A stretch of DNA of 64,000 nt from Escherichia phage vB_EcoM_G2248. The stretch lies in sequence record MK327932.1, one strand, 5' to 3'. A program made the translations under genes and the position numbers. Below are positions 1-49,037 of this stretch, piece by piece. The notes below the pieces were generated by a model. That model made no database searches. It was not told the DNA's origin and saw nothing but the letters and a program-made list of their open reading frames with translations. Within the stretch, counting starts at the first letter, position 1, and each line of letters opens with the position of its first letter.

Positions 1-2109
1 TTAAAATTTAACATTCTTAACCAGTTTCATAAAGTCTTGTGCGCGTTTGTCGTTATGTAGAATACGATACCAGTTATCTACAATATCATACAGTAACGGG
101 CTATTCTCTTTAAACTTCGCACAAACTGCTTTAATTCGTTCGTTTGCTGCCGTGAATTTTTCATCACAGATCTTTTTAGTTTCTTCGTCCATAATCCAAC
201 GAGTATGAAGGAGTAACTTGGAAACCTCTTTATTATAATGGCGACCGTACAGTCTGTCAATAAATTCTGGAATACAGCGTTCTAATTCATCGTCATGAAA
301 CAACATAGTGATCACACCCAGATATTCGCCATACCCCAGATGATTGGTCTTAACCTTCTTAGCCAGACCAGCCAGCTTACCGCGAACAAATTCTAGCGCA
401 CATTCCAATTGTTCGTCAACGAGATATTTTTGTGTCTCATTACGGGTAATAATATACTTTGTTACCCCGAAGTAGTCAAGCGCCATGTGTAATGTATTTT
501 CATTATAGATCGATTGACGGCTACGGCTTTCGAATGCATCCCCCACGCGGAACATGTGCAAGCCTGATAACTCGCGAATCTCTGCCGCTTTCATGTGATG
601 GCTGGTTTTATGCCAACTGTCACCAATCTTTTCCATGATATACACGTTAGGTAGCTTAGGAGTAGCTTCACGTTGTGTACGCTCGGTCTTCTCCGGCTTA
701 ACTGCTTTAGCACGCAGATCATCGGCCTCAGACACTTTAATCACGGTCATTTCAGATTCATCATAATACTGTTTGATGTACTCGAAAGTCTCCATATGTT
801 TTTCGTTGTTCTGACGGAACACCAGTACCTTTTTATTGATGCCGTATTCCTGGACCATGCCGTTAAGAGTCAGTGCACGCAGTTTCGGTTTATCGGTATC
901 ATCAATAAGACACAGAATATCTTCTTTATGCATCCATACAAAATGCGTAATGTTGTATTGACTGCTAACGAAAGCAGGGCGCAATTTACTGATTGTGTGT
1001 CGAGTACGATACAGAGTATACACTTGACCTTCTACGTCATTAGGCGAATCTTTACCAGCATTAACAAACTTATTATAGATTTCTACCGGATCATCCCATT
1101 GTCCGATCTTACCCATCTTGCTAATAATATTGCGTTGAGTCGATGAATACTCGCTCATAAATTGCGCAAGTTTACGCTCTGTTTTAATGTTGGCGATCTT
1201 CTCTTTGACCTTTTCCAACATCATTTCATTGATTTCTGCAATACGTTTTTCGATGTTCGCTTTAGTCTCAATTGACAAGTGAACTTCTTCACGCGATGGC
1301 ATCAGGTCCAGATCACCCAAATCAAAATTAATGTAAATGGTCTGGTGCTGACGGTTTACAGCTTCTAACCATGTTCCGCGAACATATTCATACGGGATCG
1401 GATACTGAATCTTACCCATGATTGCATATACTACATAGGAATCGTTATCACGCCCATTACAAACATAATAATTATCAAAGCTAGGGAAATAATTAATTTC
1501 GATTGCATTGATATTAGGTTTGTGTTCCCCAAAATGACGCAGTACAAATTGCGCTTCTCGATGCCATGTCTGAATATCTTTTTCTTTCACTGGAATAGTG
1601 ATTTTCAGACCATTGTCTTCATCAGTCGGTTCGTCGAAAATCTGCACCATTTTCGGCATAGAGTTTTGCACAAATGCCGTAAAGCCATAAGCGCGACCAT
1701 TGTAACAGTTTACGATTGTAAAGGTGTCAGTGTAGCTATAAGCAGATTTCGCACCTAAACCAAAAGATCCGATATAATCATTAGTTTGGTCTTTTGTTGA
1801 TTCAAAGTAAACCGTAAACAATTGTTCTAATTCTTTCTTAGACGGAATACCAGTACCATAATCACGCACAGAAAAATACGGTTCGATTGCAGTCGGTAAA
1901 TGAATATCAAACGGACGATCTAAGGTTCCGGCTTCTTTGTGAGTGTCGGTAGCATTGCACGAATACTCACGGACGCAAGCACGCTCACAATATTGATAAG
2001 TGTTCTTAGAAAGCACCATAAAAGCCTTGCTACTTGCTTTCAGTGAAAAATCAACCGCACCGCTCAAGTCACTGCCAAATACTTCTTCATTATCAATATG
2101 CATTTTCAT
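1..2109 (-). CDS. rIIA: rIIA-like protein with N-terminal GHKL-type ATPase motifs
   Basis: 702-aa ORF, stop at nt 1-3, ATG at 2107-2109 with GAGGA SD; GHKL G1/G2-like boxes RDYGTGIP and GSFGLGAKS; first gene of T4-like order next to topoisomerase. Confidence 0.75.
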   Translation of the reverse strand: MKMHIDNEEVFGSDLSGAVDFSLKASSKAFMVLSKNTYQYCERACVREYSCNATDTHKEAGTLDRPFDIHLPTAIEPYFSVRDYGTGIPSKKELEQLFTVYFESTKDQTNDYIGSFGLGAKSAYSYTDTFTIVNCYNGRAYGFTAFVQNSMPKMVQIFDEPTDEDNGLKITIPVKEKDIQTWHREAQFVLRHFGEHKPNINAIEINYFPSFDNYYVCNGRDNDSYVVYAIMGKIQYPIPYEYVRGTWLEAVNRQHQTIYINFDLGDLDLMPSREEVHLSIETKANIEKRIAEINEMMLEKVKEKIANIKTERKLAQFMSEYSSTQRNIISKMGKIGQWDDPVEIYNKFVNAGKDSPNDVEGQVYTLYRTRHTISKLRPAFVSSQYNITHFVWMHKEDILCLIDDTDKPKLRALTLNGMVQEYGINKKVLVFRQNNEKHMETFEYIKQYYDESEMTVIKVSEADDLRAKAVKPEKTERTQREATPKLPNVYIMEKIGDSWHKTSHHMKAAEIRELSGLHMFRVGDAFESRSRQSIYNENTLHMALDYFGVTKYIITRNETQKYLVDEQLECALEFVRGKLAGLAKKVKTNHLGYGEYLGVITMLFHDDELERCIPEFIDRLYGRHYNKEVSKLLLHTRWIMDEETKKICDEKFTAANERIKAVCAKFKENSPLLYDIVDNWYRILHNDKRAQDFMKLVKNVKF

Positions 2110-2123
2110 AATATAATCCTCAC

Positions 2124-2381
2124 TTAATTAAAATCTTCTTTGTCCATCTCTGCGTAGATTACATCCCACGCCCATAAATCAATAAACGCATTATATGTCA
2201 CGGTGCAATCGTTGTCAATCACTTCTTTCGCATATTTCTTGATGTTTTCGTAGGAAACTTGCGGGTCAATTTTGTGTTTACGAAGGTGCGCATATTCATA
2301 CCTCAAACATTTCATAAACAGGTCCATCGATTTCTTTTCTCGATGACACTTGGCGATCAGAAAATCAAAACTTCGACTCAT
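2124..2381 (-). CDS. hypothetical protein (rIIA.1 position)
   Basis: 85-aa ORF co-oriented, tightly packed between rIIA and downstream genes; no recognisable motif. Confidence 0.45.
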   Translation of the reverse strand: MSRSFDFLIAKCHREKKSMDLFMKCLRYEYAHLRKHKIDPQVSYENIKKYAKEVIDNDCTVTYNAFIDLWAWDVIYAEMDKEDFN

Positions 2382-2578
2382 TTTCTACTCCTTATACATT
2401 TTCAATCACCCATTGCAGATGGGCTTCTGCGTCAACCAGTTAAGCGCGGCTTTTCTCTAAGCACTTGCTGTATTCTTTACGTTCCCAATCAGCAATTTCG
2501 TTTTTCAGGACTTCTTCATAGTAAGCAATTACGCCTTTCAGGTCTGAAACTTTACGGCTTGCCAATTCGATGTAATGG

Positions 2579-2773
2579 TTACGCATTTTGATTCTCCTTT
2601 GTTACTAGATAACGAATTTGGTCTTGCATTGCGATCAGTTCCCAGCGTGCTACTTTCATCATGGAAACTGACTCTTTGAACATAATATTAGCTTTTTCCT
2701 TATTCCCTGTCAAGTAGATTTCTGCAATTTTTTCACAAAATTTTTGAGTTTCTTCATTCTTAAACGGTTTCAT
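2579..2773 (-). CDS. hypothetical small protein
   Basis: track ORF begins at TTG; first ATG gives MKPFKNEE...; preceded by promoter cassette at 2804-2832. Confidence 0.4.
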   Translation of the reverse strand: MKPFKNEETQKFCEKIAEIYLTGNKEKANIMFKESVSMMKVARWELIAMQDQIRYLVTKENQNA

Positions 2774-2803
2774 ATAAGTCAACCTTTTGTTTTCGATGGG
2801 GAC

Positions 2804-2832
2804 ATTATGATATATCCCCGATCCAGTGTCAA
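2804..2832 (-). promoter_or_regulatory. sigma70-type early promoter cassette
   Basis: minus-sense TTGACA-N17-CATAAT; G/C-rich inverted repeat in the spacer; then CATCGAAA leader. Confidence 0.5.
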
Positions 2833-2839
2833 CAGATTT

Positions 2840-3139
2840 TTAATCTTTTTTCAGTGCGTCCATTACTCGCTCTGCGATCAGTTCTCGTAAGCACTGATAA
2901 CCATGATATTTGATGGCAATGTCACGCAGATCATTAACCAGTTCCCGTACTTCATGGTCTTTCAGATCGTCTCTGTATTTCGATTTAACCGTGTCTTTAG
3001 GTGGATTGTGGATAACCTGAAAACCTTGTTCTGCAATCACTGCGGCTTCGCGCTGGCGTTCATGCTGTACTGTATTTTTGATCAGGTCTGCTTCCATGAA
3101 CTTTGCCATACTCATCATCATGTTATTCTTTTTGCTCAT
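2840..3139 (-). CDS. hypothetical protein
   Basis: track ORF starts at TTG; internal ATG at 3137-3139 has GAGGA SD 8 nt upstream (MSKKNNMMMS...); promoter at 3174-3201. Confidence 0.5.
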   Translation of the reverse strand: MSKKNNMMMSMAKFMEADLIKNTVQHERQREAAVIAEQGFQVIHNPPKDTVKSKYRDDLKDHEVRELVNDLRDIAIKYHGYQCLRELIAERVMDALKKD

Positions 3140-3173
3140 TATTAAATCCTCATAAAAGAAAAGGGAGACTCCC

Positions 3174-3201
3174 ATTATAGAGAATCTCCCTTGTATGTCA
3201 A
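3174..3201 (-). promoter_or_regulatory. sigma70-type early promoter cassette
   Basis: TTGACA-N16-TATAAT followed by GGGAGTCTCCC palindrome. Confidence 0.5.
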
Positions 3202-3204
3202 GTG

Positions 3205-5028
3205 TTATGATTGCATCCAAATTTTGCGCTGATCTGCATCTTCACTATAGAGCAAATCGAATAGCTCTTTATAGTTTTCCGGTAACGTGATGATCTCCAT
3301 GACAGGATCGTTGATCACGCGATGATAGTCTGATTCTGTGAGCGATGCTAAACCTTTGATATATCGAATGTTGTAACCTTTGATATTATCTCGGTCGTTC
3401 TCGAAATCTTCTAGGTCATAATACCATCGAACATCATCACCTTTCTTTGGTTCCGCAATGATAATAGGTGTTTTGATAAACCGGATTCGTCCATCTTCGA
3501 ACAATTCAGGCCAACGTGCAAAGAAAGAGATCAGACTAGGTTTAATAGACCCGATCCCGTCAGTATCAGCGTCTGTCATAATCGCAATATTTTTGTATTG
3601 CATAACGTCCAGCGCATCAACACCAAATTGCAAACCAGTGATCGCCATGATGTTAAAAATTTCGGCGTTCTTAACGATCTTTGCCTCTGGTTGTTCCCAC
3701 GTTGTAAGAGTTTTACCTCGCAACGGGAAACCGCCATGTAAATCTTGATCACGTACAGAGATCAGATAGTTGATCGCGGAATCACCTTCCGTCAAAAACA
3801 GGGTAGTTTCTGCGTCAGTTCCAATAAGGTTAGCTTTAACGTGTTTTGCCACCTTAGCCCGTTTCGCTGCCTTTGCTGCCTTAGTCGCTGCCGCTTTATC
3901 TGCTGCCTCTTTGCGTGCCAGGACTACAGCAATAATAGGCATGATAATGTTTTCTTTCTTAGCAATGACTTTAGCCAGCTTTTTAAAATCCAGATCAATG
4001 TGTCGCTTGATATCACCAGTTGGGTTAGTCAAGCGTTCTTTTGTCTGTGAATCAAAACGAAGGTTAGGCAATTCACGAACAATAAGAATACAGGTCAATC
4101 CAGACTTAACCGCAGCTTTAGTAACATCAACCTTATATTCTTTCTTGATTCGTTTTACAATCTCTTCACAAAGATCATCTGTCACGTAGTCTACGTGTGT
4201 TCCCCCGTTTTTGGTAAACAGACCGTTAGCAAAGGATACTGATTTAAAACCTTCTCCCTCGACCGCCGGAACTAGGGCAAGTGAAAAGTTTTTATCTTCA
4301 ATGACAAACGGATCATCATTGTATAGTTTAGCATAATCCTTGAACTTGCTGGTTATCTTTTTGCCATTAAACTTAAACGTGATCTTAGGAAAGATTACAC
4401 TCAATGAATACATTCGATCGCAAATCACATCTGAAATTTCTTGTGACATGATCATACCTTCAAAATGATCGAAATCGGGGCAGAACGTAACCTTAGTTCC
4501 TTTCAGTTTTGACGGCTTAGATGACCAGCTAATATTTTCTGCACCATTGGTACATTGAACGGTCAGTTCATTCTCTCCGTCACACGTCACACCAGTAAAC
4601 CAGGACGAGAAAAATGATGTGAGCGCGCTTCCGATCCCATTCATACCCATAGTAACACGATTTGTATCATCAAAGTTAGACCCTGCTTTAGCTCGTGTCC
4701 ATGCAGCAACTGGTTGTGGAATCTGTTTCCCTTCTGGCGTCGTAACAATATGTTGCGGAATACCGCGACCATTATCTGTTACTGACACAATGTTATCTTT
4801 TATATCCACACTAATAACATTAGCGTACTCAAAATTAGTGCGGATCGCCTCGTCCACAGAATTGTCGATAATTTCATCAATAATTTTAACTAGACCGGGA
4901 ACGTATGAAACTTTGGTCCATTTTCCAAATAGGAAACGATTGTGTGATTCATAAGTCGTTGACCCGATGTACATTGAAGGTCTCTTAAGACAGTGAGCGC
5001 GATCATCCAACAGCAAAAATTCAGACAT
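3205..5028 (-). CDS. 39: DNA topoisomerase II large (ATPase) subunit, gp39 with gp60-equivalent C-terminus fused
   Basis: 607 aa; GyrB-type GHKL ATPase motifs (DNGRGIP, GLHG-like) and TOPRIM-like region; length matches T2-type uninterrupted 39 rather than split T4 39+60. Confidence 0.9.
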   Translation of the reverse strand: MSEFLLLDDRAHCLKRPSMYIGSTTYESHNRFLFGKWTKVSYVPGLVKIIDEIIDNSVDEAIRTNFEYANVISVDIKDNIVSVTDNGRGIPQHIVTTPEGKQIPQPVAAWTRAKAGSNFDDTNRVTMGMNGIGSALTSFFSSWFTGVTCDGENELTVQCTNGAENISWSSKPSKLKGTKVTFCPDFDHFEGMIMSQEISDVICDRMYSLSVIFPKITFKFNGKKITSKFKDYAKLYNDDPFVIEDKNFSLALVPAVEGEGFKSVSFANGLFTKNGGTHVDYVTDDLCEEIVKRIKKEYKVDVTKAAVKSGLTCILIVRELPNLRFDSQTKERLTNPTGDIKRHIDLDFKKLAKVIAKKENIIMPIIAVVLARKEAADKAAATKAAKAAKRAKVAKHVKANLIGTDAETTLFLTEGDSAINYLISVRDQDLHGGFPLRGKTLTTWEQPEAKIVKNAEIFNIMAITGLQFGVDALDVMQYKNIAIMTDADTDGIGSIKPSLISFFARWPELFEDGRIRFIKTPIIIAEPKKGDDVRWYYDLEDFENDRDNIKGYNIRYIKGLASLTESDYHRVINDPVMEIITLPENYKELFDLLYSEDADQRKIWMQS

Positions 5029-5034
5029 ATTATA

Positions 5035-5778
5035 TCATTCTCCGTCAGTTCGTTTCAGGTATTCCAATGCCGCATATAATCTTTGAGGATCGTCTTTGAA
5101 CATCCCTAATCCGGCATTACATTTTCCACAAAGAACACCTCTTATCTTACCAGTCTTATGATTATGGTCAAGATGTTTCCACTTTTGGCGTTTTCTCACG
5201 CCGCATCGTTCATTTATGAATTTTACACCGCATATCTCGCAATTGTCAACTCTGCCTAAAATTTCTAACGCTTCTCTTTTTGATATTTTTATACCATTTT
5301 CGGCATGATGATATGGCCTATCTAGTTCTCGCTCTCGCTTCTCAAACAATCGACACTCATCAGAACAATACTTTTGAGATACGTTTATTGCAACAAATGG
5401 TTTACCACATTTAGCGCATTCTCGTTCAATCTTTATGTTTTGTGCCTGGTCCAACGATGCGCAACGAGAACAGCAAAATTTATGATAGCCTTTAGAGTAT
5501 GTATGATAATTTACAGGATTTGGGCATCTTGCACATTTAACTATTCCTGTTATTCCGTGGCGCAATCTATAAACAGCCTCGTTATATGGTTGTTGATTTC
5601 TGAGACCTCCATTACAGAACTTAAACTCATTCCTTATAATCTGAAATTCAGCAGGATACAATTTTTCCATTTCTGGAATTTTATTTTCTTTAAAAAGATT
5701 TGAGTTTAGTCTATTTCCGCTTTTCGCCTCCAGAACATCAACAATAAACTTTTTGATGTTCACTTTTTCTCTCTCCAA
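5035..5778 (-). CDS. HNH endonuclease of the Endo VII type with N-terminal zinc-ribbon repeats (probable homing endonuclease)
   Basis: C-terminal HLDHNHKTGKIRGVLCGKCNAGLG matches the T4 endonuclease VII catalytic signature; several CxxC...CxxC ribbons upstream; locally AT-rich. Confidence 0.65.
   Translation of the reverse strand: MEREKVNIKKFIVDVLEAKSGNRLNSNLFKENKIPEMEKLYPAEFQIIRNEFKFCNGGLRNQQPYNEAVYRLRHGITGIVKCARCPNPVNYHTYSKGYHKFCCSRCASLDQAQNIKIERECAKCGKPFVAINVSQKYCSDECRLFEKRERELDRPYHHAENGIKISKREALEILGRVDNCEICGVKFINERCGVRKRQKWKHLDHNHKTGKIRGVLCGKCNAGLGMFKDDPQRLYAALEYLKRTDGE
5035..5778 (-). mobile_element. free-standing HNH homing-endonuclease-like gene inserted between topoisomerase and dexA
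   Basis: endonuclease signature plus compositional shift; no T4 counterpart at this position. Confidence 0.45.
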
Positions 5779-5866
5779 TACATAACATAACCATAACTTA
5801 CTGCAACCGCCACAAAGACGGCTGCAACAATCATATTAAAAATTGAGTGATTGTCAAGTATATGAC

Positions 5867-6040
5867 TCATGACACGCGCACATTTTTATCATAGTACCCG
5901 CCATTAATCCCGCGCGGGGCGGTTAATCCCTGTTTGCATTCTTTACCACATTCAGGGCATTCTGCCTTTTCACGTTCGGAAATTTTGCGGATTTTCTGAA
6001 ATTGACCGTGTTCTTCACAAGAATAATCATATAATGGCAT
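5867..6040 (-). CDS. small zinc-ribbon protein (FmdB-like CxxC...CPxCG)
   Basis: internal ATG at 6038-6040 (MPLYDYSCEEHGQF...CPECGK); track ORF extends further 5' over dexA. Confidence 0.45.
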   Translation of the reverse strand: MPLYDYSCEEHGQFQKIRKISEREKAECPECGKECKQGLTAPRGINGGYYDKNVRVS

Positions 6041-6041
6041 A

Positions 6042-6710
6042 TTATCCCCTTTGTTTCTTAACTGAATTTGGATCTGGATTTTCTGGCAAGTCTTCCAGAC
6101 CCATAGCATAACGTTGTGCATAGATTAGCATAAGAATATCGCGAGCGCAATCATGAATCGCATCATGTGCGATAAAACCATCTAGCGTACCCATTGGTAA
6201 CGGACACTCACACATCCCGCGATGCATCAATGTACGCTCAATGGCGGTACGAACATCTCGGATGTTCCAGAATCGCACAGGTTCAAGATTGAACGTCTCT
6301 CGTGTATTGTGTGAACGGCGGATCATATCAACTAGTAACGGAATATCAAACGCATTACCGCGTGACCACATTACGGATTTAACCGGATCTACTCCTACGG
6401 CTTCACAGAATGCGTTAAAACGCGCTAAACCTTCTTTAGTTGATACTTCCGTACCATTTGTGATTAATTGCTTTCTCATGCCTTCTGAGGCGGTATTCTT
6501 CCACCATTCAACCACACCATGATCAAACACCCTTACACCTTTCTGGGAAGGAATATCAAATTTTACCAGAAAGGAATTGTCAACCAGTTCTTTAAATGTA
6601 GGTGGATTGTGCGGATCTTCTTTAAATCCGATTGCCGCCATATTGATCACCGCCCCATCAGGCGGATAACCTAAACTTTCAAAGTCAATCATTAAATCCA
6701 CTGGAAGCAT
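6042..6710 (-). CDS. dexA: exonuclease A (DEDD-type 3'-5' exonuclease)
   Basis: start at internal ATG (MLPVDLMIDFESLG...), about 222 aa as in T4 DexA; position upstream of dda. Confidence 0.75.
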   Translation of the reverse strand: MLPVDLMIDFESLGYPPDGAVINMAAIGFKEDPHNPPTFKELVDNSFLVKFDIPSQKGVRVFDHGVVEWWKNTASEGMRKQLITNGTEVSTKEGLARFNAFCEAVGVDPVKSVMWSRGNAFDIPLLVDMIRRSHNTRETFNLEPVRFWNIRDVRTAIERTLMHRGMCECPLPMGTLDGFIAHDAIHDCARDILMLIYAQRYAMGLEDLPENPDPNSVKKQRG

Positions 6711-6711
6711 T

Positions 6712-6954
6712 TTAAATATCCTCCGCGATGTGCCGGAATAACTCCAGATCATTTTTATCAAGAATGAAACCACTACAATCAATAATTCCTTTACCGTAAT
6801 TATCGATTAATAGTCGGTCCGTTGCCATGTATGCGCGTACTTTGTTGTTAAAATTAATTACATGTTGTGCATAGTCACAATGAATCTTTTGACGGTTCCA
6901 CGCGACAATTGATTGTAGATGTATTACATTAGCCATATCATTAATAACAACCAT
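6712..6954 (-). CDS. hypothetical protein
   Basis: 80-aa ORF, ATG at 6952-6954 with GAGG SD, stop abuts dexA start. Confidence 0.5.
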   Translation of the reverse strand: MVVINDMANVIHLQSIVAWNRQKIHCDYAQHVINFNNKVRAYMATDRLLIDNYGKGIIDCSGFILDKNDLELFRHIAEDI

Positions 6955-6957
6955 ATC

Positions 6958-7128
6958 AAAAACCTCGCTTAGTGAAATGCTCGATCATTTTATTGATACA
7001 TGCAGCTTCACTATCGCCGGACACGTTCCAGCCGTATAGACCCCATCTAAAGCACATGGTAACAGTTCCATTGTGACGGCTTACCGTCACATCATTAAAT
7101 TCTGGGATACTTCGCATAATCATAATAA
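6958..7128 (-). CDS. hypothetical small protein (56 aa)
   Basis: untracked short ORF with GAGGA SD, fills the gap between dda and the next gene. Confidence 0.3.
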
Positions 7129-7133
7129 TTTCC

Positions 7134-8525
7134 TCAAATATAGTCTACTCGATACCGCGCACGGGTAACACCCACATATAATAACTGCATTGCCAATTCA
7201 AAGTCAACATTGTCTGTACACATACAAGGAGTATACAGGAACACGCGGTCTACGCTGACCCCTTGTGACTTATGAATGGTGCAAGCTGGTAATGCTTTTA
7301 CATTCAAGAACATACGTTTAATCGTCCAGAAGGAATCCCAATCTGGTTTAAATTTTGGATTCTCTTTCTTCATTTCGCGATATTGTCCGGCGACCGTATT
7401 CAGATAGATAAAGAAAATGTTCTTCTGACGTTGTTCTGTCAGAATGTTGATTTCTACCAAATCCGGTTTATCTGTAGTGATTCCGACTGCATCTAAACCG
7501 ACTTTCTGATTTAGGATTTCTTTGTCTTCGTCATCATCGACGCTTTCCACTTTCAGAGTATAGCCTAAAACTGGTTGCGGATCTACCCCCGTGCAACGTA
7601 ATGTAAATTCACGCGGGATGACCTCTTTAACTCGGATCATCTCACCATTGTTAAAAATGACATTGGGAATCTTCTTCCCGCGTTCATCTCGCAGATATTC
7701 GATCAACGGTTCCTGAGTAACCAGAATTTCATCTACAATCACTGGTTCATCTGTGTTATAAACGCGCTTGCGCACAATTTCATTGAGTTTTTCGACGCTC
7801 TTGTTAGTGTAAGCCAGAATACGGTTTTCTAGAAGGTCTTCCGGCGTTTTAACGGTTTCGAAATAATGTTTCATAAACTCCGGCAGAGTTGAGCTATGGA
7901 ATACACCCTCGTTACCGCACTGCTTTTCGAATACCCATTTACCGTTACGGACAGCGGTCGCCACATCAATGATCGGTGCATTAGAACGTTTAATTTCTGT
8001 CAACTCCACGTTTTGAAAATTTTCATCCGTGAAGAAAGGAGAAATTGACGTTGCACCGCTCGGATCAACTGGTCGTAACTGGTGCGGATCGCCAACGGCA
8101 ATAATAACAATTCGACCGTTGATACTCTTCATGAGAATATCAAATAACTTCTTATCGACCATACTCGCTTCATCAACAATGATGATCTGAACATCATCTA
8201 GTTTAGGAGTATCTTTTTGTTCAAATACTTGAGTATCTTCATAGTTGGTCGGGTTTAGTCGCAATAAAGCATGTAAAGTAAATGCTTGACGACCTACCGC
8301 TTTACTCAAAACTTTTTTAGCCTGGTGGGTAGGCGTTGCCAAAACCACACCAGTTACACCACGGCGGACCATTTCCTGAACAATGAATTTCATCATTGCG
8401 GTTTTACCAGTACCCGCCGCACCACGGACAGTTGTATGCTTCTTTTGTTCAATTCGTTTCATTAGAACATCAAAAGCATGTTTTTGTCCGTCTGTCAACA
8501 TATCGAAAGTTAATACTCTGCTCAT
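7134..8525 (-). CDS. dda: Dda-type SF1 DNA helicase
   Basis: 463 aa; Walker A GAAGTGKT, Walker B IIVDEASM, C-terminal LYVGVTRARY; collinear with T4 Dda. Confidence 0.9.
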   Translation of the reverse strand: MSRVLTFDMLTDGQKHAFDVLMKRIEQKKHTTVRGAAGTGKTAMMKFIVQEMVRRGVTGVVLATPTHQAKKVLSKAVGRQAFTLHALLRLNPTNYEDTQVFEQKDTPKLDDVQIIIVDEASMVDKKLFDILMKSINGRIVIIAVGDPHQLRPVDPSGATSISPFFTDENFQNVELTEIKRSNAPIIDVATAVRNGKWVFEKQCGNEGVFHSSTLPEFMKHYFETVKTPEDLLENRILAYTNKSVEKLNEIVRKRVYNTDEPVIVDEILVTQEPLIEYLRDERGKKIPNVIFNNGEMIRVKEVIPREFTLRCTGVDPQPVLGYTLKVESVDDDEDKEILNQKVGLDAVGITTDKPDLVEINILTEQRQKNIFFIYLNTVAGQYREMKKENPKFKPDWDSFWTIKRMFLNVKALPACTIHKSQGVSVDRVFLYTPCMCTDNVDFELAMQLLYVGVTRARYRVDYI

Positions 8526-8839
8526 TATCCTAAAATCCTCACCTTGCGAACACAGATAGTATTGAGTTCCCGCCGTACCCGTTCTTTTTCATATTCAGGA
8601 ATTTTGTATTCTATACCATCCCGAACAATTTCAGAAGATCGGATTATACCAAATTTTCTTTTAGGCACAACCTTGTATTTCGGTTCGCCTGCCAATAGAC
8701 TCTCACAATAATCTATCTGATCACACATTGACGCTAACGCAGCATCATGTGTTTCGCAAGTTAGGACGCGACCTTTCGCGTCCACTGAGTATTGAAAGAA
8801 TCCGTCTTTATCACGATAACATACAGCAAATACATGCAT
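8525..8839 (-). CDS. hypothetical protein (dda.1 position)
   Basis: 104-aa ORF, start overlaps upstream stop. Confidence 0.5.
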   Translation of the reverse strand: MHVFAVCYRDKDGFFQYSVDAKGRVLTCETHDAALASMCDQIDYCESLLAGEPKYKVVPKRKFGIIRSSEIVRDGIEYKIPEYEKERVRRELNTICVRKVRILG

Positions 8840-9594
8840 TATAAACCTACCTTCGCTTTCATCAATTCAATCCACGACGCATCAATCGGAAGCCCGTATT
8901 TCACGCGTTCTTTTTGTGCTGGCGTTAAGTTCTCATACTTAGAAAGAGATTCAATCAAAACGCTGGTATATTTTAGCACGATTTCGGTATTGTTTGCAAT
9001 AGCCTTGAGTTTTTCCTCTTTCTTGTTGATTTCGCTAAGGGCTTGCTTGAGATCTGCAATTTTCTGATAACGTTCTTCCATACGGAAGATAGTATTTTTA
9101 ATCGCTCGCTCGGCTGCCTCTGCTTTCTCCGGTTCGTTGTGCTTTTTGTGGCGCTCGATTGCTAATTTCTTTTCTTCGATTGCTATTTCCTGATTTTTGA
9201 TGCGATTCTCGTTAAGTTCGATCCACTCGATGTACTTCGCACGTAGGGCAATTTCATCATCAGAAAGTTTACCGTTAGTTCCTAGTTCCTGAATCTCTTT
9301 AAGAGATTCGATAGTGTGATTGCCACGGAAAGAATTATATTTCAGTTTAACCGGAATTACATTGCCATCAACATATCCCAGATTGCAATCAATGCGCTCT
9401 AAGGAGAGTCCGTCATCACCTTCACCGAAAGCCTCACCTGAATAGGCGCAATGAGTCTGACGGTAAATGTTACGCACAGTGACTAAGCTCATAGAGAAGT
9501 CTTTGTTGCGACGTGAAGCGCCAGCCATGATAGAGTTCAGACGGAAAACAACCAGCGCCAGTTCTTCGTTAGATTTAAAAGCAAACAGTTTCAT
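8839..9594 (-). CDS. hypothetical protein with K/E-rich coiled-coil C-terminus (srd position)
   Basis: 251-aa ORF; ATG at 9592-9594 with GGAGAATCAATTATG; promoter cassette at 9624-9652. Confidence 0.5.
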   Translation of the reverse strand: MKLFAFKSNEELALVVFRLNSIMAGASRRNKDFSMSLVTVRNIYRQTHCAYSGEAFGEGDDGLSLERIDCNLGYVDGNVIPVKLKYNSFRGNHTIESLKEIQELGTNGKLSDDEIALRAKYIEWIELNENRIKNQEIAIEEKKLAIERHKKHNEPEKAEAAERAIKNTIFRMEERYQKIADLKQALSEINKKEEKLKAIANNTEIVLKYTSVLIESLSKYENLTPAQKERVKYGLPIDASWIELMKAKVGL

Positions 9595-26088: not shown

Positions 26089-27114
26089 CTAACTTTTTGC
26101 GCTATTTACTTCGGCTAAAAGTTCATCAGAAATACGCTTGACCGCCGCAAGTTCTTCCGGTTCTAGGTTTTGTTCTTCCAGATATTCATAGACCATCTGA
26201 ATAGTGCTTTTAACTTCAATAACACCTGTTTCCTGTGATGCGCTACTCTCCAGTTTATGGACCACTTTTAGCTTGTGTACAACGGCCTCTAACGCGCTTT
26301 CTAACTTAGTTAACCCATTATCAGCAACCGTTGCGATAAGACGCACACTAAGCCCCTTAAAGCGTTCTACATCGATTTTATCATCTGACGGGTAAGTGAT
26401 ACGCACATGATAAGTTTTGTCATTCTGGATAAACTCTTTTTTGTGTGTATCGGTATCGAATACCCAAAACCCACGCGGATCGTTTTCGTCACCCGCCGTT
26501 AGTGTGTATGGTGTACCAATATACGTTACGTTACCGCCATCACTGATAGTATGAAAGTGACCCGAAAACACTTCACGGTATTTCTTGAGGAAGTCCGCGC
26601 TATAACCTTCGGATTTTAGCCCTTTATAGAAATAGTAACCGGACAATTCCCAATGGCCTACACAATATTCGCTGAATGAGTTTTGAATAAACTCTAAAAT
26701 CTCTGATTTATTGTCATCACAAAACCACGGGAACAGATCAAATGATACACCATCAAAGGTAACTGTTTCCGGTTTATCGATAACCTTAATGCAATCATAC
26801 TGGCTTAACACTTCACGCGGTGCGTTAGGCTGGATCTTGTTTCGTTTAAACATATCATGATTCCCGACCGTGGTATAACAAGTAATATCAGCCTCTTCCA
26901 GTAGCGGTATGACCTTAGTACGGTTAAATTTCATGGTTTCATGGGTAATTGCTTTTCGGCAATCAAACCAATCCCCTGTTTGAATCCATGTCTTAATATT
27001 ATGCTCTTTGGAGTATTCAACCGCTTTCTTGATGGTGTCAAGAATATACTCATGCACCCACGGATCATCGCCACCGATACCAGTATGCAGATCACCTAAA
27101 AGCAAAATTTTCAT
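26089..27114 (-). CDS. 47: recombination endonuclease subunit gp47 (Mre11/SbcD-like phosphoesterase)
   Basis: 341 aa; calcineurin-like motifs (MKILLLGDLH, GNHD). Confidence 0.9.
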   Translation of the reverse strand: MKILLLGDLHTGIGGDDPWVHEYILDTIKKAVEYSKEHNIKTWIQTGDWFDCRKAITHETMKFNRTKVIPLLEEADITCYTTVGNHDMFKRNKIQPNAPREVLSQYDCIKVIDKPETVTFDGVSFDLFPWFCDDNKSEILEFIQNSFSEYCVGHWELSGYYFYKGLKSEGYSADFLKKYREVFSGHFHTISDGGNVTYIGTPYTLTAGDENDPRGFWVFDTDTHKKEFIQNDKTYHVRITYPSDDKIDVERFKGLSVRLIATVADNGLTKLESALEAVVHKLKVVHKLESSASQETGVIEVKSTIQMVYEYLEEQNLEPEELAAVKRISDELLAEVNSAKS

Positions 27115-27205
27115 AGTCTCTTCCTCTCTTCGTTTTCGATGCTCTCACTATATCACAGAAAAATAAAAAGGGAAACCCCTTTCAGAGTCTCCCTTATAAA
27201 AGCCA

Positions 27206-39335: not shown

Positions 39336-39809
39336 CTATCTTAATCTTTGTATGAATTGTTTCTTATACTTCTTCGTGATCTCTTCTCTTGTATCCGCGT
39401 CACAGTAATCGAAACCTTCTGCGTCCATAATAGCAACCATCTCCGCTCGTGTCAAGCGTGAAAATCGTTTTACTTTATCAACAGCATATTGAGGATGTAA
39501 ATGATTGTTGGTGTAGTCTCCTTTGATGTAATTAACATAGTTTGTAGCCCAAACAACGAAATCAGCACCTAAAGCACCAACACCAAACCGTTTAAAGTCT
39601 CCGGTCAACGATCCTTCTAGGCGGTTGCAACACGAATGAAGCAATCCCCTTACGCGGCCTTGCCCTTTCCCATCTAGATCGTGGTCGTGGTCAAGATGGT
39701 TTTTGCTCATATCCTCAAAAAGTGGCAATTGACAAAGGGGGCAAATGCCCCCCTGTTTTTCGAATAGTTCTTGTTTGTACTCTTTAGCACTCTTAGCAGT
39801 CAGTAACAT
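39336..39809 (-). CDS. 49: recombination endonuclease VII (gp49)
   Basis: starts at ATG giving MLLTAKS... as in T4 gp49; HLDHDH...RGLLHSCCN catalytic/zinc motif. Confidence 0.85.
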   Translation of the reverse strand: MLLTAKSAKEYKQELFEKQGGICPLCQLPLFEDMSKNHLDHDHDLDGKGQGRVRGLLHSCCNRLEGSLTGDFKRFGVGALGADFVVWATNYVNYIKGDYTNNHLHPQYAVDKVKRFSRLTRAEMVAIMDAEGFDYCDADTREEITKKYKKQFIQRLR

Positions 39810-45250: not shown

Positions 45251-45280
45251 ATTTGATTCTCCTTAGTTGGTATGGTTATC

Positions 45281-45308
45281 ATTATACGGGGATTTCTCCC
45301 CGTGTCAA
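45281..45308 (-). promoter_or_regulatory. early promoter cassette with spacer palindrome
   Basis: TTGACA-CGGGGAGAAATCCCCG-TATAAT. Confidence 0.55.
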
Positions 45309-45311
45309 CAA

Positions 45312-45533
45312 TTAAATGATCTCTGCTTCACCGTTAAGGAAGAAAGACCATGTTTTGTTAGGATAACGAAGCGCCCATGATTCAGCAGTTTTAACACCAG
45401 CTTCGAACAATTGACGGCTGGTTACTTTAGCCATACCATCTTCGATGGCAACGTTTTCAATAATCATCGGGTACTTAGCGCCACGCATGAAACCGAAGCC
45501 AGTGGAAGATTTGATAATTTTAACAGTTGCCAT
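45312..45533 (-). CDS. hypothetical protein (family 2-like)
   Basis: track ORF overlaps promoter 45573-45601; ATG with GGAGAATCAAAAATG gives MATVKIIK... Confidence 0.5.
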   Translation of the reverse strand: MATVKIIKSSTGFGFMRGAKYPMIIENVAIEDGMAKVTSRQLFEAGVKTAESWALRYPNKTWSFFLNGEAEII

Positions 45534-45572
45534 TTTTGATTCTCCTAGAAAGTGTCGTGTTTCGATGGGTGT

Positions 45573-45601
45573 ATTATGCAATAACACCGGATCGCTGTCA
45601 A
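45573..45601 (-). promoter_or_regulatory. early promoter
   Basis: TTGACA-N17-CATAAT then ACACCCATCGAAACACGAC leader and GGAGAATCAAAAATG. Confidence 0.55.
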
Positions 45602-45619
45602 CACTTTCTAAGAAAAATT

Positions 45620-45904
45620 TTAAATTAATCGAATATAACCAAGAATTTCAGCGCCTTTAGCCAGTCCTAAAACTTCCCATTCAAGGTCGCCGTAGTCATA
45701 ATTTGCAACCATCAACTGACCATTTTTCATGCAGCAATCATGAGAGAAAATTTTCCCCGTATAAACTACGATAGTAATAAACTTTCCTGATTCTGGCGGT
45801 GTGGAAGACAAAGCGACCATATGACCATTCAGCTTAGTCACCAGTGATGGAACAATAAAATTCGGGCTTACCTGAATACCGTTAAATTCGTTTGTGTCTT
45901 TCAT
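45620..45904 (-). CDS. hypothetical protein
   Basis: 94-aa ORF. Confidence 0.45.
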   Translation of the reverse strand: MKDTNEFNGIQVSPNFIVPSLVTKLNGHMVALSSTPPESGKFITIVVYTGKIFSHDCCMKNGQLMVANYDYGDLEWEVLGLAKGAEILGYIRLI

Positions 45905-46251
45905 GCCAGACCTCGCAAAACACTAATAGCATAATCATGCTGGTTATTCATAATATCAATTGCATTGTGATAACGAGCTAAACCATCAAGGATAAATTCT
46001 TGTTTATCCTGTTTCAGTTTTGTATCACGCGCAGCCATAAGAGCATCAAGAACAGGTCCAAAGTGATTATCTAATTCATCTTCGGTTGCAATGTTTCCTA
46101 TTGCCTCGTCGATCCGTGATTCTAATGCTTGCTTTTCGTTGATCACTTGCTGGGTATATTCCAACACATCAAGAATATCGCGGGTAACGTCGCCATGATA
46201 AGGTATTCCCGCATGAAAATGATCAATTAATCGCTGAATATCAATGTTCAT
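45901..46251 (-). CDS. hypothetical protein
   Basis: 116-aa ORF. Confidence 0.45.
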   Translation of the reverse strand: MNIDIQRLIDHFHAGIPYHGDVTRDILDVLEYTQQVINEKQALESRIDEAIGNIATEDELDNHFGPVLDALMAARDTKLKQDKQEFILDGLARYHNAIDIMNNQHDYAISVLRGLA

Positions 46252-46892: not shown

Positions 46893-49037
46893 TTATTCAC
46901 GTCCATTTGTATAGTAGTGTTTGAATCGACCGTAACCAGTTTCAATGGTCATTGTTCTTTGGTGAACAATAGCCCAATAACCGTTACAGGAATCTTGCAG
47001 ATACAAATCTTTACCTTTCATAAACTCATTAAAGATTGTTTTCTGCCAGTCATAATAGACAGAATCTTCAATCTTATCCATCCAACCGTGTGGGTCTTCA
47101 AGCAGTTCAACAAGTTCATCGATAACCCAATACGGACACGGACTAAATCGACCTTTACTAAATTCGTTGAACACAGTAACGGTTTTAGCTTCCGGTCTAG
47201 GTTCATCAGGTTCTTCCGGTCGACGATTAACCACAACCTGAACATATTTTGTATAACCGATAATTTCCCCAGAGTCCAACTCATCGTTATTGTTCTGGTC
47301 AGCAAAAGCAACGAATCTATAGACTCCAGAGTCACCTATAGTAGCATTAACTTTTGTGTATATCGGTGTTTTGGGATCGATAATCGGCAACCGAACACCA
47401 TTTTTACTAAACTCATACGTTGGAACGTATGTAGAAGGAGGATTTAATGTCGTTGCTTCTAATGTCAAAGTATCCCCTTCCATAATCTGTACAGGATGAG
47501 GTCCGTCAAATTCCATATTAGGAACAACTTCAACATTATAGGTTGCACGCCCTGCAATATCATAATCATGATGCGCACTATATGGGTCTACACTAGGACT
47601 ATCTCTATATTCATGCGCCCAAATGCCATTATGTTCACGATCCGCAGAGTCAGTAATTTTATACTCTTTAGCCTCAATTGGTAGTTCGGTCACAAAAACA
47701 TCATTTTTTGTTATAACCAAAGAACGAGTTTGAGTAAAATCGCTACTTGCGGGTGGCTCTGGATCGACGATCTTAATAACAATAGGTTCACCAACCTCAA
47801 TATTTCGATAATCGTATTCTTTGTCATAAATGTCAAGCATACGACGGTCGTAAAATAATGGCCTTCCTTTATTGAGGTCATATGCACCATCTTGATTAGA
47901 AGGGGCAACTAGTAATTGTAAAGCAACGCTATTATCATACTGCAAGTCCGATAAAGTAATTCGGTCATAACCTTCATCGCCATATTTTTTGCTTTGTAGA
48001 GTTTTACCACCCAACATCCACGTAAAATAAACATTATTATTAATCAAACTATAATGTCGATTCCACGTATTATCGGATGTTACTAATGGCATATCTAGAT
48101 TGACGGTGGACCCAGAAGGATAACGAAATTCAACGGAATTAAAATCACGATCAAAAAATTCATTGTCTTTGATTGTTACCGTGAATCTATGACGATCACC
48201 ATCAATATATGCTGTCCCTTCTCTGGTTTCACTTGCGGCCTTATATGCACGAACCAAAGCAACATAAACACCCGCATCGGTTTCTTGAGCATGTTTCGTT
48301 ACAAACAGAGTCCTGTCTGTAGATTCATAAATTAAGCTACCATCTTCTCTTTCCAGACGATAACGGACAACGGTATATTCATCATTGGCGGGAGAATCGT
48401 CTGTCACCGTAAAATAGACAGGAGCATATTTCTGTGCGTTAAAAATTTCCGCGCTTTCCTGAATGGTGGCCTCAAACGGATAAACAAATTTCACGTCACC
48501 CGCTTCATCGCTAAGTTCCATTCTATATGTGCCAGAAAATTCAGGCCATGCAAATTTTGCAATTTTAAATTCACGATGGTCTAAACCAAGATCCCCGTCA
48601 ATAGTATCAACAAGACCGTCATTATAATAAAGGTCGATAGAAATGTTTTCTGGGATATGAATACGAAAAACAATTTTAGCCTTTATTTCGTCACCAACCA
48701 CAAAGGAAGTTGGAGGATATACATATTCAACATACTGATTATCAAATAATTCAAATGTGAAATTTTCCGTGCCGATATCAACGGATTCACCAGCAAAATC
48801 ATTATCATCTTGGGCATAGCCACGAACATTAACAGACCATCCTGTTTTATCGCTTTCTTTCACAGATTTTAATTCAAAAGACGGTGTATCGGTTGTAGCA
48901 ACAACCACCCCACCTTTTTTCCAAACATAACCTTTTTTCGGTTTAGTTGGATCATCTGATTCGGCAGCAATTGAGCACGCGAACGTATGAGGAAGCCAAA
49001 TGGTTGTGTTAATGCTAGTATCTTTTACTTCTGGCAT
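46893..49037 (-). CDS. large beta-rich protein, function unknown
   Basis: 714 aa; strong SD GGGGGAA; repetitive beta-strand-like segments and distinct C-terminal domain; followed by terminator 46856-46883. Confidence 0.55.
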   Translation of the reverse strand: MPEVKDTSINTTIWLPHTFACSIAAESDDPTKPKKGYVWKKGGVVVATTDTPSFELKSVKESDKTGWSVNVRGYAQDDNDFAGESVDIGTENFTFELFDNQYVEYVYPPTSFVVGDEIKAKIVFRIHIPENISIDLYYNDGLVDTIDGDLGLDHREFKIAKFAWPEFSGTYRMELSDEAGDVKFVYPFEATIQESAEIFNAQKYAPVYFTVTDDSPANDEYTVVRYRLEREDGSLIYESTDRTLFVTKHAQETDAGVYVALVRAYKAASETREGTAYIDGDRHRFTVTIKDNEFFDRDFNSVEFRYPSGSTVNLDMPLVTSDNTWNRHYSLINNNVYFTWMLGGKTLQSKKYGDEGYDRITLSDLQYDNSVALQLLVAPSNQDGAYDLNKGRPLFYDRRMLDIYDKEYDYRNIEVGEPIVIKIVDPEPPASSDFTQTRSLVITKNDVFVTELPIEAKEYKITDSADREHNGIWAHEYRDSPSVDPYSAHHDYDIAGRATYNVEVVPNMEFDGPHPVQIMEGDTLTLEATTLNPPSTYVPTYEFSKNGVRLPIIDPKTPIYTKVNATIGDSGVYRFVAFADQNNNDELDSGEIIGYTKYVQVVVNRRPEEPDEPRPEAKTVTVFNEFSKGRFSPCPYWVIDELVELLEDPHGWMDKIEDSVYYDWQKTIFNEFMKGKDLYLQDSCNGYWAIVHQRTMTIETGYGRFKHYYTNGRE

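What the first reader, a model, noticed from the sequence alone, without database searches (positions are those of the whole stretch)
3205..5028. Topoisomerase large subunit encoded as one uninterrupted 607-aa ORF
T4 splits this function into 39 and 60 with a mobile insert and a translational bypass in gene 60. Here the reading frame is continuous and the insertion-prone region downstream instead holds small ORFs and the HNH gene at 5035-5778.
Basis: partly seen in the sequence, partly recalled or inferred. Interest (0 to 1): 0.2.

Follow-up and report, generated by a model that had tools for sequence, protein, structure and literature searches.

The report
Unsplit phage topoisomerase gene, endonuclease neighbour
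This is the ordinary, already-annotated one-piece form of the T4-type phage topoisomerase large subunit; the only unusual thing nearby is an optional selfish endonuclease gene just upstream that appears to have brought a foreign first third of the topoisomerase gene with it.

Summary
Window 3205-5028 (minus strand) is one intact 607-aa ORF with GHKL ATPase, transducer and Toprim domains. Residues 2-474 align to T4 gp39 (56%), residues 476-605 to T4 gp60 (55%), and the whole protein is collinear with T2 gp39.

It is not new. The window is an RB49-like phage (Krischvirus). RB49's GenBank record already says gene 39 'corresponds to gp60 and gp39 in T4', and Phi1 names it '60+39'. The unsplit form is the norm and T4's split is the exception.

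ORF 5035-5763 lies upstream of gene 39 on the same strand, not at T4's insertion site, and it is not MobA-like.

That ORF is the more interesting part. It is an endonuclease VII/Hpy99I-type nuclease carried by 12 of 58 Krischvirus genomes. It is always linked to a 5' gene 39 tract (coding nt 1-681) that is 25% divergent from RB49, against 1% for the rest of the gene. Homologues occupy the same position in VR7-like phages and metagenomic contigs, with linked tracts of about 57, 700 and 1140 nt. I read it as an uncharacterised free-standing homing endonuclease that targets the start of gene 39. No cleavage was tested.

The parts
3205..5028 (-). Gene 39: unsplit topoisomerase II large subunit ('60+39'), 607 aa. 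The motifs read intact: N-box EIIDNSVDEA aa 52-61, G1 DNGRGIP 85-91, G2 GMNGIGS 128-134, QTK loop SQTKERL 327-333, Toprim LTEGDSA 412-418 and IMTDADTDG 483-491.
   Evidence: RB49 and Phi1 annotation
3601..3636 (-). Codons ~465-476 (GLQFGVDALDVM). This is the position equivalent to where the MobA/bypass cassette splits T4 gene 39 from gene 60. Here it is continuous, with no extra residues relative to T2.
   Evidence: alignment; T4 annotation; insertion site aa 466-473 per bioRxiv 10.1101/2022.08.31.505936; coordinates
4348..5028 (-). Variant 5' tract of gene 39 (coding nt 1-681, roughly the GHKL ATPase domain). It has 172 differences from RB49 (25%), against 11 in the remaining 1143 nt (1%). 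dS 1.39, dN/dS 0.10. It is shared by all 12 endonuclease-carrying Krischvirus records and by G37-3.
4969..5028 (-). First 60 nt of gene 39, equivalent to the inferred endonuclease target. It is the second most divergent 60-nt bin against RB49 (25 of 60 nt; nt 361-420 has 26). It corresponds to the only strongly divergent patch between VR7 (carrier) and VR25 (non-carrier).
5035..5763 (-). Optional 242-aa endonuclease gene. It has an N-terminal region, two Cys-rich CxxC...(F/Y)C(C/S)xxC motifs (aa 77-101 and 116-137), and a C-terminal beta-beta-alpha-Me/HNH core (CEIC 175-178, HLDHNH 197-202, CGKCN 212-216). Inferred free-standing homing endonuclease.
5029..5780 (.). A 752-nt segment that replaces 13 nt of RB49 (net +739 bp), directly after the shared ...GGTTATGTTATG. 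It holds the endonuclease gene with its Shine-Dalgarno sequence and a new Shine-Dalgarno sequence (GGAG) for gene 39.
5760..5870 (-). ORF006.1 homologue (36 aa). Its last 6 codons are rewritten by the insertion, and its stop overlaps the endonuclease GTG start (GTGA).
5830..5857 (-). Sigma-70-like early promoter match (TTGACA-16-TATGAT, 11 of 12) in sequence shared with RB49. The endonuclease gene is inserted between this site and gene 39, so it would be co-transcribed with gene 39. This is a consensus match only.
3161..3192 (-). Intrinsic-terminator-like stem-loop (13 pairs plus a T tail) just after the gene 39 stop. It overlaps a 12/12 promoter match (3201->3174). Both are annotated at the same place in GEC-3S and G5211.

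Best explanation
Window 3205-5028 (minus strand) is gene 39 of an RB49-like T4-type phage (Krischvirus). It encodes the GyrB-like ATPase/Toprim subunit of the phage type IIA topoisomerase in its usual one-piece form, and would work together with the gp52 subunit, which is encoded outside this window. T4's gp39+gp60 arrangement is the derived state, created by the MobA/bypass cassette. Here that site is simply unoccupied. The neighbouring ORF 5035-5763 is not part of the topoisomerase. It is most likely a free-standing homing endonuclease with an endo VII/Hpy99I-type nuclease domain and two Cys-rich motifs. It is inserted between gene 39 and its upstream promoter, is translated by coupling to ORF006.1, and supplies gene 39's ribosome-binding site. 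I infer that it cuts endonuclease-free gene 39 alleles within the first ~60 nt, which encode the conserved LSDxEHxxKRxGMYIG segment. Repair from the carrier genome would then copy in the endonuclease gene together with flanking gene 39 sequence. That would explain why this window's first ~681 nt of gene 39 are a foreign allele, which I infer to be cut-resistant. What is shown: the identity, integrity and collinearity of gene 39; the presence/absence polymorphism; and the linked divergence. What is inferred: nuclease activity, the target site and the homing.
For: Gene 39 identity: Pfam domains. BLASTP to T4 gp39, T4 gp60 and T2 gp39, and a four-way alignment showing that only T4 has the ~70-residue insert. 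93% aa identity to RB49 gp39, whose record says it corresponds to T4 gp60 plus gp39; Phi1 names it '60+39'. All 17 Krischvirus alleles examined are intact 1824-nt ORFs. Catalytic motifs are present. dN/dS is 0.10 in the tract and dN is 0 elsewhere. Gene 52 is present in RB49 at 160.4-161.8 kb. Literature: the MobA cassette inserts at aa 466-473 and was found in only 28 genomes; mobA's listed target gene is 39.

Endonuclease: it is a 739-bp net insertion relative to RB49 and Phi1 at a precise junction. It is present in 12 of 58 Krischvirus records, always at this site. The variant 5' allele is found in exactly those 12 plus G37-3, and about 45 others have a ~79%-identical allele. Against RB49 there are 172 differences in 681 nt versus 11 in 1143 nt, and only 3 mismatches in the 300 nt on the other side of the junction. 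The nuclease core is intact, with Hpy99I as best PDB match (E 8e-10). A canonical gene 49 exists separately at 39339-39809. Full-length homologues (40-76% aa) sit immediately 5' of an intact gene 39 in VR7, VR26, RZ and the metagenomic contigs L035 and L036, and are optional within Gaprivervirus. VR7 vs VR25 differ at 19 positions in the first 60 nt (1.9 expected, P 3e-14), with only 3 aa changes. The linked tracts differ in length, ~57 nt in VR7, ~681 nt here and ~1140 nt in VR26/RZ, and all are anchored at the gene 39 start.
Against: No cleavage, target site or homing has been shown for this protein, and I found no paper describing it. All 13 Krischvirus carriers share the same tract boundary (~nt 681-762), which fits one old recombination event followed by descent rather than ongoing homing. 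The variant tracts of different genera do not share a donor (61-63% aa identity to each other), so their origin is unknown. The promoter and terminator calls are consensus matches only. The Toprim Pfam hit is marginally below its cutoff. Topoisomerase activity and pairing with gp52 were not tested.
Confidence: 0.85

Rival explanations
1. The 5035-5763 ORF is an ordinary accessory nuclease that is not mobile. The divergent 5' third of gene 39 came from routine homologous recombination (module exchange at the ATPase/transducer boundary) with an unsampled relative, and the two are linked only because they are adjacent.
For: All 13 Krischvirus carriers share one tract boundary near nt 681-762, which is consistent with a single event. 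The boundary lies near the end of the GHKL domain (Pfam). G37-3 carries the tract without the ORF. There is no experimental evidence of cleavage.
Against: The same gene family sits at the same junction in five lineages at 40-98% aa identity, each with its own linked gene 39 divergence of different length (~57, ~681, ~1140 nt) anchored at the junction. The VR7/VR25 patch is 19 changes in 60 nt with only 3 aa changes (P 3e-14), which simple adjacency does not predict. The flank on the other side of the insertion is nearly identical to RB49 (3 of 300 nt).
Confidence: 0.2
2. The one-piece gene 39 is not ancestral. It is a re-fusion after a MobA/bypass cassette inserted and was later lost ('hit and run'), as proposed for some Aeromonas phages.
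For: The preprint read describes such re-fused genes, so the process exists in this gene family.
Against: Re-fused genes keep cassette-derived CTE/NTE sequence at the insertion site. Here aa 461-490 align residue for residue with T2 and RB49 with no insert (only 1 extra residue relative to T2), and all 17 Krischvirus alleles are 1824 nt.
Confidence: 0.03
3. ORF 5035-5763 is the phage's endonuclease VII (Holliday-junction resolvase/packaging nuclease), as several GenBank records label it.
For: Pfam Endonuclease_7 hit (E 6e-16); PHROGs 'endonuclease VII' families; labels in MIZ6 and JEP8.
Against: The window has a canonical gene 49 at 39339-39809 that is 100% identical in protein to RB49 gp49. 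The ORF matches gp49 and T4 endo VII only over ~31-38 residues of the metal-binding core. It is absent from 46 of 58 close relatives, which an essential resolvase would not be. Its best solved relative is the sequence-specific enzyme Hpy99I.
Confidence: 0.03

Closest known systems
RB49 gene 39 / Phi1 gene '60+39' (Krischvirus topoisomerase II large subunit); T2 gp39
   Same: Same gene, same coordinates relative to rIIA, same 1824-nt length. 93% aa identity to RB49 gp39, with aa 241-607 identical. Collinear with T2 gp39 (605 aa) at 56% identity.
   Different: The first ~227 codons are a different allele (42 aa differences, 25% nt divergence from RB49). This allele is found in the 12 phages that carry the upstream endonuclease gene and in G37-3, which lacks it.
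T4 gp39 + gp60 with the mobA / 50-nt translational bypass cassette
   Same: Homologous protein: aa 2-474 match gp39 and aa 476-605 match gp60. Gene 39 is a homing-endonuclease target in both systems.
   Different: Here there is no split, no C- or N-terminal extension, no bypass and no mobA. The endonuclease is assigned by Pfam to Endonuclease_7 and best matches Hpy99I (not compared directly with MobA). It sits outside the ORF at its 5' end and does not disrupt the coding sequence.
Free-standing homing endonucleases of T-even phages that cut a neighbouring gene and co-convert flanking markers (SegG/gene 32, MobE/nrdB, SegF/gene 56)
   Same: A cassette with no promoter assigned to it, lying between conserved genes, with overlap of the upstream ORF's stop. 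It is sporadically distributed among close relatives and is flanked on one side by a divergent tract in an essential conserved gene (general properties from PMC2988022).
   Different: A different nuclease and DNA-binding architecture (endo VII/Hpy99I-type core plus two Cys-rich motifs). Neither cleavage nor homing has been demonstrated.
T4 endonuclease VII (gp49) and restriction endonuclease Hpy99I (PDB 3FC3)
   Same: Shared beta-beta-alpha-Me core with CxxC...H-x-D-H-x-H...CxxCN. Hpy99I aligns over aa 162-239 (E 8e-10) and T4 endo VII over aa 195-225 (E 0.005).
   Different: No similarity outside the core. It is not the gp49 orthologue, which is at 39339-39809. There is no evidence that it is part of a restriction-modification system.

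Membership tests
Type IIA topoisomerase ATPase/Toprim subunit (GyrB/ParE-like; T4-type Topo II large subunit) | GHKL ATPase domain with N-box, G1 and G2 motifs | tested here: met
   Pfam HATPase_c E 4e-08, above cutoff. EIIDNSVDEA, DNGRGIP and GMNGIGS located. Motif definitions come from established GyrB knowledge.
Type IIA topoisomerase ATPase/Toprim subunit (GyrB/ParE-like; T4-type Topo II large subunit) | Transducer domain with QTK loop | tested here: met
   Pfam DNA_gyraseB E 5e-17; SQTKERL at aa 327-333.
Type IIA topoisomerase ATPase/Toprim subunit (GyrB/ParE-like; T4-type Topo II large subunit) | Toprim domain (E-G-D-S-A glutamate and DxD acidic cluster) plus C-terminal tail domain | tested here: met
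   LTEGDSA at 412-418 and IMTDADTDG at 483-491. TOPRIM_C 29.7 bits against a cutoff of 29. The Toprim Pfam hit (21.6 bits) is slightly below its 23.1 cutoff.
Type IIA topoisomerase ATPase/Toprim subunit (GyrB/ParE-like; T4-type Topo II large subunit) | Collinear orthology with T2 gp39 and with T4 gp39+gp60 | tested here: met
   BLASTP and MAFFT alignment.
Type IIA topoisomerase ATPase/Toprim subunit (GyrB/ParE-like; T4-type Topo II large subunit) | Partner GyrA-like subunit (gp52) and ATP-dependent strand-passage activity | not testable with these tools
   Gene 52 is annotated in RB49 at 160404-161768, outside the window. Activity needs biochemistry.
MobA/bypass-split topoisomerase gene (T4 39/60 type) | ORF split at aa ~466-473 with C- and N-terminal extensions, a 50-nt coding gap and a mobA gene or remnant | tested here: not met
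   Continuous alignment with T2 across aa 461-505, with no insert. Definition and the T4 annotation.
Free-standing homing endonuclease (for ORF 5035-5763) | Intact nuclease catalytic core of a family known to include homing endonucleases (HNH / beta-beta-alpha-Me) | tested here: met
   Pfam Endonuclease_7 E 6e-16. CEIC, HLDHNH and CGKCN are conserved in all five homologues. Hpy99I alignment.
Free-standing homing endonuclease (for ORF 5035-5763) | Presence/absence polymorphism at one precise site among close relatives | tested here: met
   12 of 58 Krischvirus records. Exact junction after GGTTATGTTATG, also used in L036. Optional in Gaprivervirus.
Free-standing homing endonuclease (for ORF 5035-5763) | Linked sequence divergence (co-conversion tract or resistant target variant) in the adjacent conserved gene | tested here: met
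   Window vs RB49: 172 of 681 nt against 11 of 1143 nt. VR7 vs VR25: 19 of 60 nt against 1.9 expected. VR26/RZ: ~1140-nt tract.
Free-standing homing endonuclease (for ORF 5035-5763) | Site-specific cleavage of the endonuclease-free allele and super-Mendelian inheritance in mixed infection | not testable with these tools
   Requires purified protein and phage crosses. No report was found in the literature searches.
T4 endonuclease VII (gp49) resolvase orthologue (for ORF 5035-5763) | Full-length orthology to gp49 (157 aa, including the C-terminal dimerisation region) and a single essential copy | tested here: not met
   Only a ~31-38-residue core matches. The true gp49 is at 39339-39809. The ORF is absent from most relatives.

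The most novel reading that the evidence does not exclude
ORF 5035-5763 and its homologues in VR7/VR26-type phages and metagenomic T4-like contigs form an uncharacterised family of free-standing homing endonucleases. The family has an endo VII/Hpy99I-type nuclease plus two Cys-rich motifs and is specialised on the first ~60 nt of topoisomerase gene 39. It would drive replacement of anything from ~57 nt up to the whole ATPase-domain coding region. Together with MobA (internal site, T4) and the HNH_3+AP2 gene found after the stop codon in some Krischvirus genomes, gene 39 would then be a target for three unrelated endonuclease lineages at three sites.
Probability: 0.6. Interest if true: 0.35.

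Novelty: already known. Interest (0 to 1): 0.18.

Why it matters
The flagged feature itself matters little. One-piece gene 39 is the default in T4-like phages and is annotated as such in near-identical genomes. It only confirms that T4's split gene and bypass are the exception. The neighbouring endonuclease is of modest interest. It offers a clean, testable natural example of a selfish nuclease linked to replacement of the 5' part of an essential enzyme gene, with a narrowly predicted target in the first ~60 nt of gene 39. It also shows that 'endonuclease VII' labels in these genomes are misleading, because the real gene 49 lies elsewhere.

Tried and rejected
1. Common donor for the carrier-linked tracts. 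I tested whether the carrier-linked gene 39 N-terminal tracts of Krischvirus and Gaprivervirus share one donor. They do not: 61-63% aa identity to each other, no closer than non-carrier alleles. The shared 'HCLKRP' motif is therefore local to the putative target.

2. Donor of the window's tract. No phage record lies between the two allele classes; the next best match outside the genus is ~64% nt. L036 (87% aa) is the nearest relative but is not a donor.

3. Multiple independent homing events within Krischvirus. I expected different tract ends but found one shared boundary in all 13 carriers. Independent events are supported only between lineages.

4. IMG/VR scan with the endonuclease alignment. 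It returned VR26 itself plus distant nuclease-domain-only relatives, none next to a topoisomerase gene, so it added little.

5. Literature. Searches for this endonuclease in RB49, Krischvirus or VR7 papers found no description. Many relevant papers are outside the searchable library.

6. MobA susceptibility. The window's DNA at the empty MobA site is only 64% identical to T2 over 78 nt, and no conclusion can be drawn.

7. Failed calls. Searches failed because of coordinate or term-length errors and were repeated.
Full report
OBSERVATION

The window has one ATG-initiated ORF at 3205..5028 on the minus strand, 607 aa, with no internal stop. Pfam places HATPase_c (aa 45-186), DNA_gyraseB (258-383), Toprim (409-518, marginally below cutoff) and TOPRIM_C (519-606) in that order. 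The diagnostic motifs can be read directly: N-box EIIDNSVDEA, G1 DNGRGIP, G2 GMNGIGS, QTK loop SQTKERL, Toprim LTEGDSA and IMTDADTDG.

WHERE THE WINDOW COMES FROM

Megablast of window 1-9000 finds 58 phage records, all RB49-like (Krischvirus), at 90-99% identity. The window starts at the rIIA stop codon, the conventional genome start. On the minus strand the gene order is srd, dda, dexA, 39.2, ORF006.1, [5035-5763 ORF], 39, four small ORFs, rIIA.

I built T4 gp39 and gp60 (joining across the annotated 50-nt bypass) from NC_000866 and T2 gp39 from AP018813.
- Window aa 2-474 align to T4 gp39 4-475 at 56% identity.
- Window aa 476-605 align to T4 gp60 31-158 at 55% identity, E 1e-50.
- The whole protein aligns to T2 gp39 at 56% over 605 residues.
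- In the four-way alignment only T4 has extra residues, about 70 (the gp39 C-terminal extension plus the gp60 N-terminal extension), at window aa ~473-476.

The C-terminal part is therefore gp60-like and the reading frame is continuous.

WHY THIS IS ALREADY KNOWN

- RB49's GenBank record annotates gene 39 at the same coordinates as 'corresponds to gp60 and gp39 in T4 which are disrupted by an insertion'.
- Phi1 calls it '60+39' and ECD7 'gp60+39'.
- The review PMC2988022 describes the mobA insertion that splits the T4 gene.
- The preprint 10.1101/2022.08.31.505936 found the MobA/bypass cassette in only 28 genomic sequences, inserted at aa 466-473.

The unsplit gene is the rule. A 'hit-and-run' re-fusion is unlikely here, because no cassette-derived residues remain at the site. 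The partner subunit gene 52 lies at 160.4-161.8 kb in RB49, outside this window.

Both genes are on the minus strand, so the '5035-5778 HNH gene' is upstream of gene 39. It is about 1.4 kb from the T4-equivalent insertion point (window 3601-3636). Pfam assigns it to Endonuclease_7 (E 6e-16). The small ORFs at 2124-3139 are downstream but conserved in RB49 and Phi1.

THE NEIGHBOURING ORF

Insertion and distribution:
- Relative to RB49 and Phi1 the window carries a net 739-bp insertion directly after ...GGTTATGTTATG, at the end of ORF006.1.
- Only 12 of the 58 Krischvirus records have it, always at this position.

Gene structure:
- The likely start is the GTG at 5763 (242 aa). It has a GGAG Shine-Dalgarno sequence, a GTGA overlap with the ORF006.1 stop, and agrees with the N-termini of the homologues.
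- Its 3' end supplies a GGAG for gene 39.
- A promoter-like site (5857->5830) lies in shared sequence upstream of the junction, and a terminator-like hairpin (3192->3161) follows gene 39. The ORF would therefore be co-transcribed with gene 39. These are consensus matches only.

Protein:
- Two Cys-rich CxxC...(F/Y)C(C/S)xxC motifs (aa 77-101, 116-137) and a C-terminal CEIC...HLDHNH...CGKCN core.
- Best solved relative is the sequence-specific restriction enzyme Hpy99I (E 8e-10, aa 162-239). T4 endo VII matches only 31 residues.
- The window has its own canonical gene 49 at 39339-39809, 100% identical in protein to RB49 gp49. The ORF is therefore not the resolvase that several records label it as.

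LINKED DIVERGENCE IN GENE 39

- Against RB49, the window has 172 differences in coding nt 1-681 (25%) and 11 in the remaining 1143 nt (1%). There are only 3 differences in the 300 nt on the other side of the insertion.
- All 42 amino-acid differences fall in aa 1-240.
- The tract is old and under purifying selection (dS 1.39, dN/dS 0.10). It is a functional allele from a diverged relative.
- blastn shows the allele (92-100% identity) in exactly the 12 carriers plus G37-3, while about 45 other Krischvirus genomes have a ~79%-identical allele.
- G37-3 has the tract but no endonuclease gene. It switches from RB49-like to variant-like sequence at the start codon.
- All carriers share the same tract end. 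Within Krischvirus this looks like one ancient acquisition.
- JEP8 and E26 carry a sub-allele that differs from the window's tract by 56 synonymous and 0 non-synonymous changes.
- JK32 and Skers have a small RB49-like patch at nt 121-180.

OTHER LINEAGES

Full-length homologues occupy the same position, immediately 5' of an intact gene 39:
- VR7 (40% aa), VR26, RZ and TH15 (43-45%) in Gaprivervirus. The TH15 position was not inspected.
- A 169-kb metagenomic T4-like contig, L035 (60%), with the same 6-nt spacer before gene 39.
- A short Krischvirus-like contig, L036 (76%), inserted after the same GGTTATGTTATG.

In Gaprivervirus the gene is again optional. VR7 (carrier) and VR25 (non-carrier) differ at 19 positions in the first 60 nt of gene 39, where 1.9 are expected (P 3e-14), with only 3 amino-acid changes. 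There are then 0, 0, 1 and 1 differences in the next four 60-nt bins. VR26 and RZ have a ~30% divergent tract from nt 1 to ~1140.

There are thus three linked tract lengths, all anchored at the junction. The shortest points to gene 39 nt ~9-57 as the critical site. Carrier-linked alleles change the same codons:
- Window: LLDDRAHCLKRPSMYIGS
- L036: MLDDRTHCLKRPHMYIGS
- L035: LLDDRSHVLKRPSMYIGS
- VR26: LLSDKDHCLKRPGMYIGS
- Non-carrier RB49: ILSDREHVLKRAGMYIGS

The tracts of the two genera do not share a donor.

INTERPRETATION

Gene 39 here is the ordinary unsplit large subunit (confidence about 0.97). The upstream ORF is most likely a free-standing homing endonuclease that targets the start of gene 39, and the variant ATPase-domain tract is its co-conversion or resistance footprint (confidence about 0.65-0.7). 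This matches the behaviour described for SegG, MobE and related enzymes in PMC2988022. Cleavage, target and homing are all inferred. The main rival is a non-mobile accessory nuclease linked only by adjacency to an ordinary recombination patch. That rival is disfavoured by the VR7 patch and by the recurrence of the arrangement across lineages.

VERDICT

The flagged feature is real, correctly identified and already known, so its interest is low. The adjacent endonuclease with its linked tract is a probable new member of a known kind and deserves a brief experimental test.

Noticed in passing
window 3140-3204 (intergenic, just after the gene 39 stop); compare L006 3198-3761, L007 3198-3761, L016 3019-3582, L019 2841-3404: Some Krischvirus genomes (G5211, G37-3, JSE, kvi) carry an optional 187-aa HNH_3+AP2 endonuclease gene immediately after the gene 39 stop. 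This window lacks it. All four carriers share a divergent patch at the extreme 3' end of gene 39 (9 of the last 24 nt differ from both the window and RB49). That suggests a second endonuclease lineage targeting the other end of the same gene.
   Followed up: partly
window 55781-56356 (-): A 191-aa HNH_3+AP2 ORF lies inside a 644-bp insertion that RB49 lacks. It is 47% identical to the G5211 endonuclease found downstream of gene 39. It is probably another free-standing homing endonuclease.
   Followed up: partly
window ~27111-27115 (junction); RB49 26366-26930: The window lacks RB49 ORF040c, an annotated HNH/AP2 putative endonuclease downstream of gene 47. This is another presence/absence endonuclease polymorphism.
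   Followed up: no
window 46893-49037 (-), and window 45275-45311: A 714-aa ORF with no Pfam match and only a weak Hoc-like PHROG match (aa 478-698) sits in ~2 kb that RB49 lacks. Conversely, a 908-bp RB49 stretch containing the gene annotated '38' (45367-46143) has no counterpart at window 45275-45311.
   Followed up: partly
window 2392-2586 (-): The homologue of RB49 ORF003c (64 aa, intact in RB49, G5211, E26 and others) contains an in-frame stop in the window. Only a 48-aa ORF remains (2440-2586), which still matches phrog_9544.
   Followed up: no
L009 (JEP8) and L010 (E26), gene 39 coding nt 1-720: A second version of the carrier-linked tract differs from the window's by 56 synonymous and 0 non-synonymous substitutions (dS 0.49, against 0.13 in the rest of the gene). 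The protein is unusually constrained despite a deep split.
   Followed up: no
L007 (G37-3) 5559-5649; L012 (JK32) and L013 (Skers), gene 39 coding nt 121-180: G37-3 has the variant gene 39 tract but no endonuclease gene, with the crossover at the start codon. It could be a resistant empty site or a case of loss. JK32 and Skers have a ~60-nt RB49-like patch inside the variant tract.
   Followed up: partly
L002 (MIZ6), L006 (G5211), L014 (FL04), gene 39 annotation: Several endonuclease-carrying genomes annotate gene 39 from an internal ATG (590 aa, starting at MYIGS). This drops the conserved N-terminal 17 residues that align with T2 and T4. The same genomes label the upstream ORF 'endonuclease VII', although the true gene 49 lies elsewhere.
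   Followed up: yes
L023 (SP18) 1899-2297: In many Gaprivervirus genomes the same slot upstream of gene 39 holds an unrelated 132-aa ORF (RB69ORF005c-like) instead of the endonuclease gene. The junction is a general insertion hotspot.
   Followed up: no
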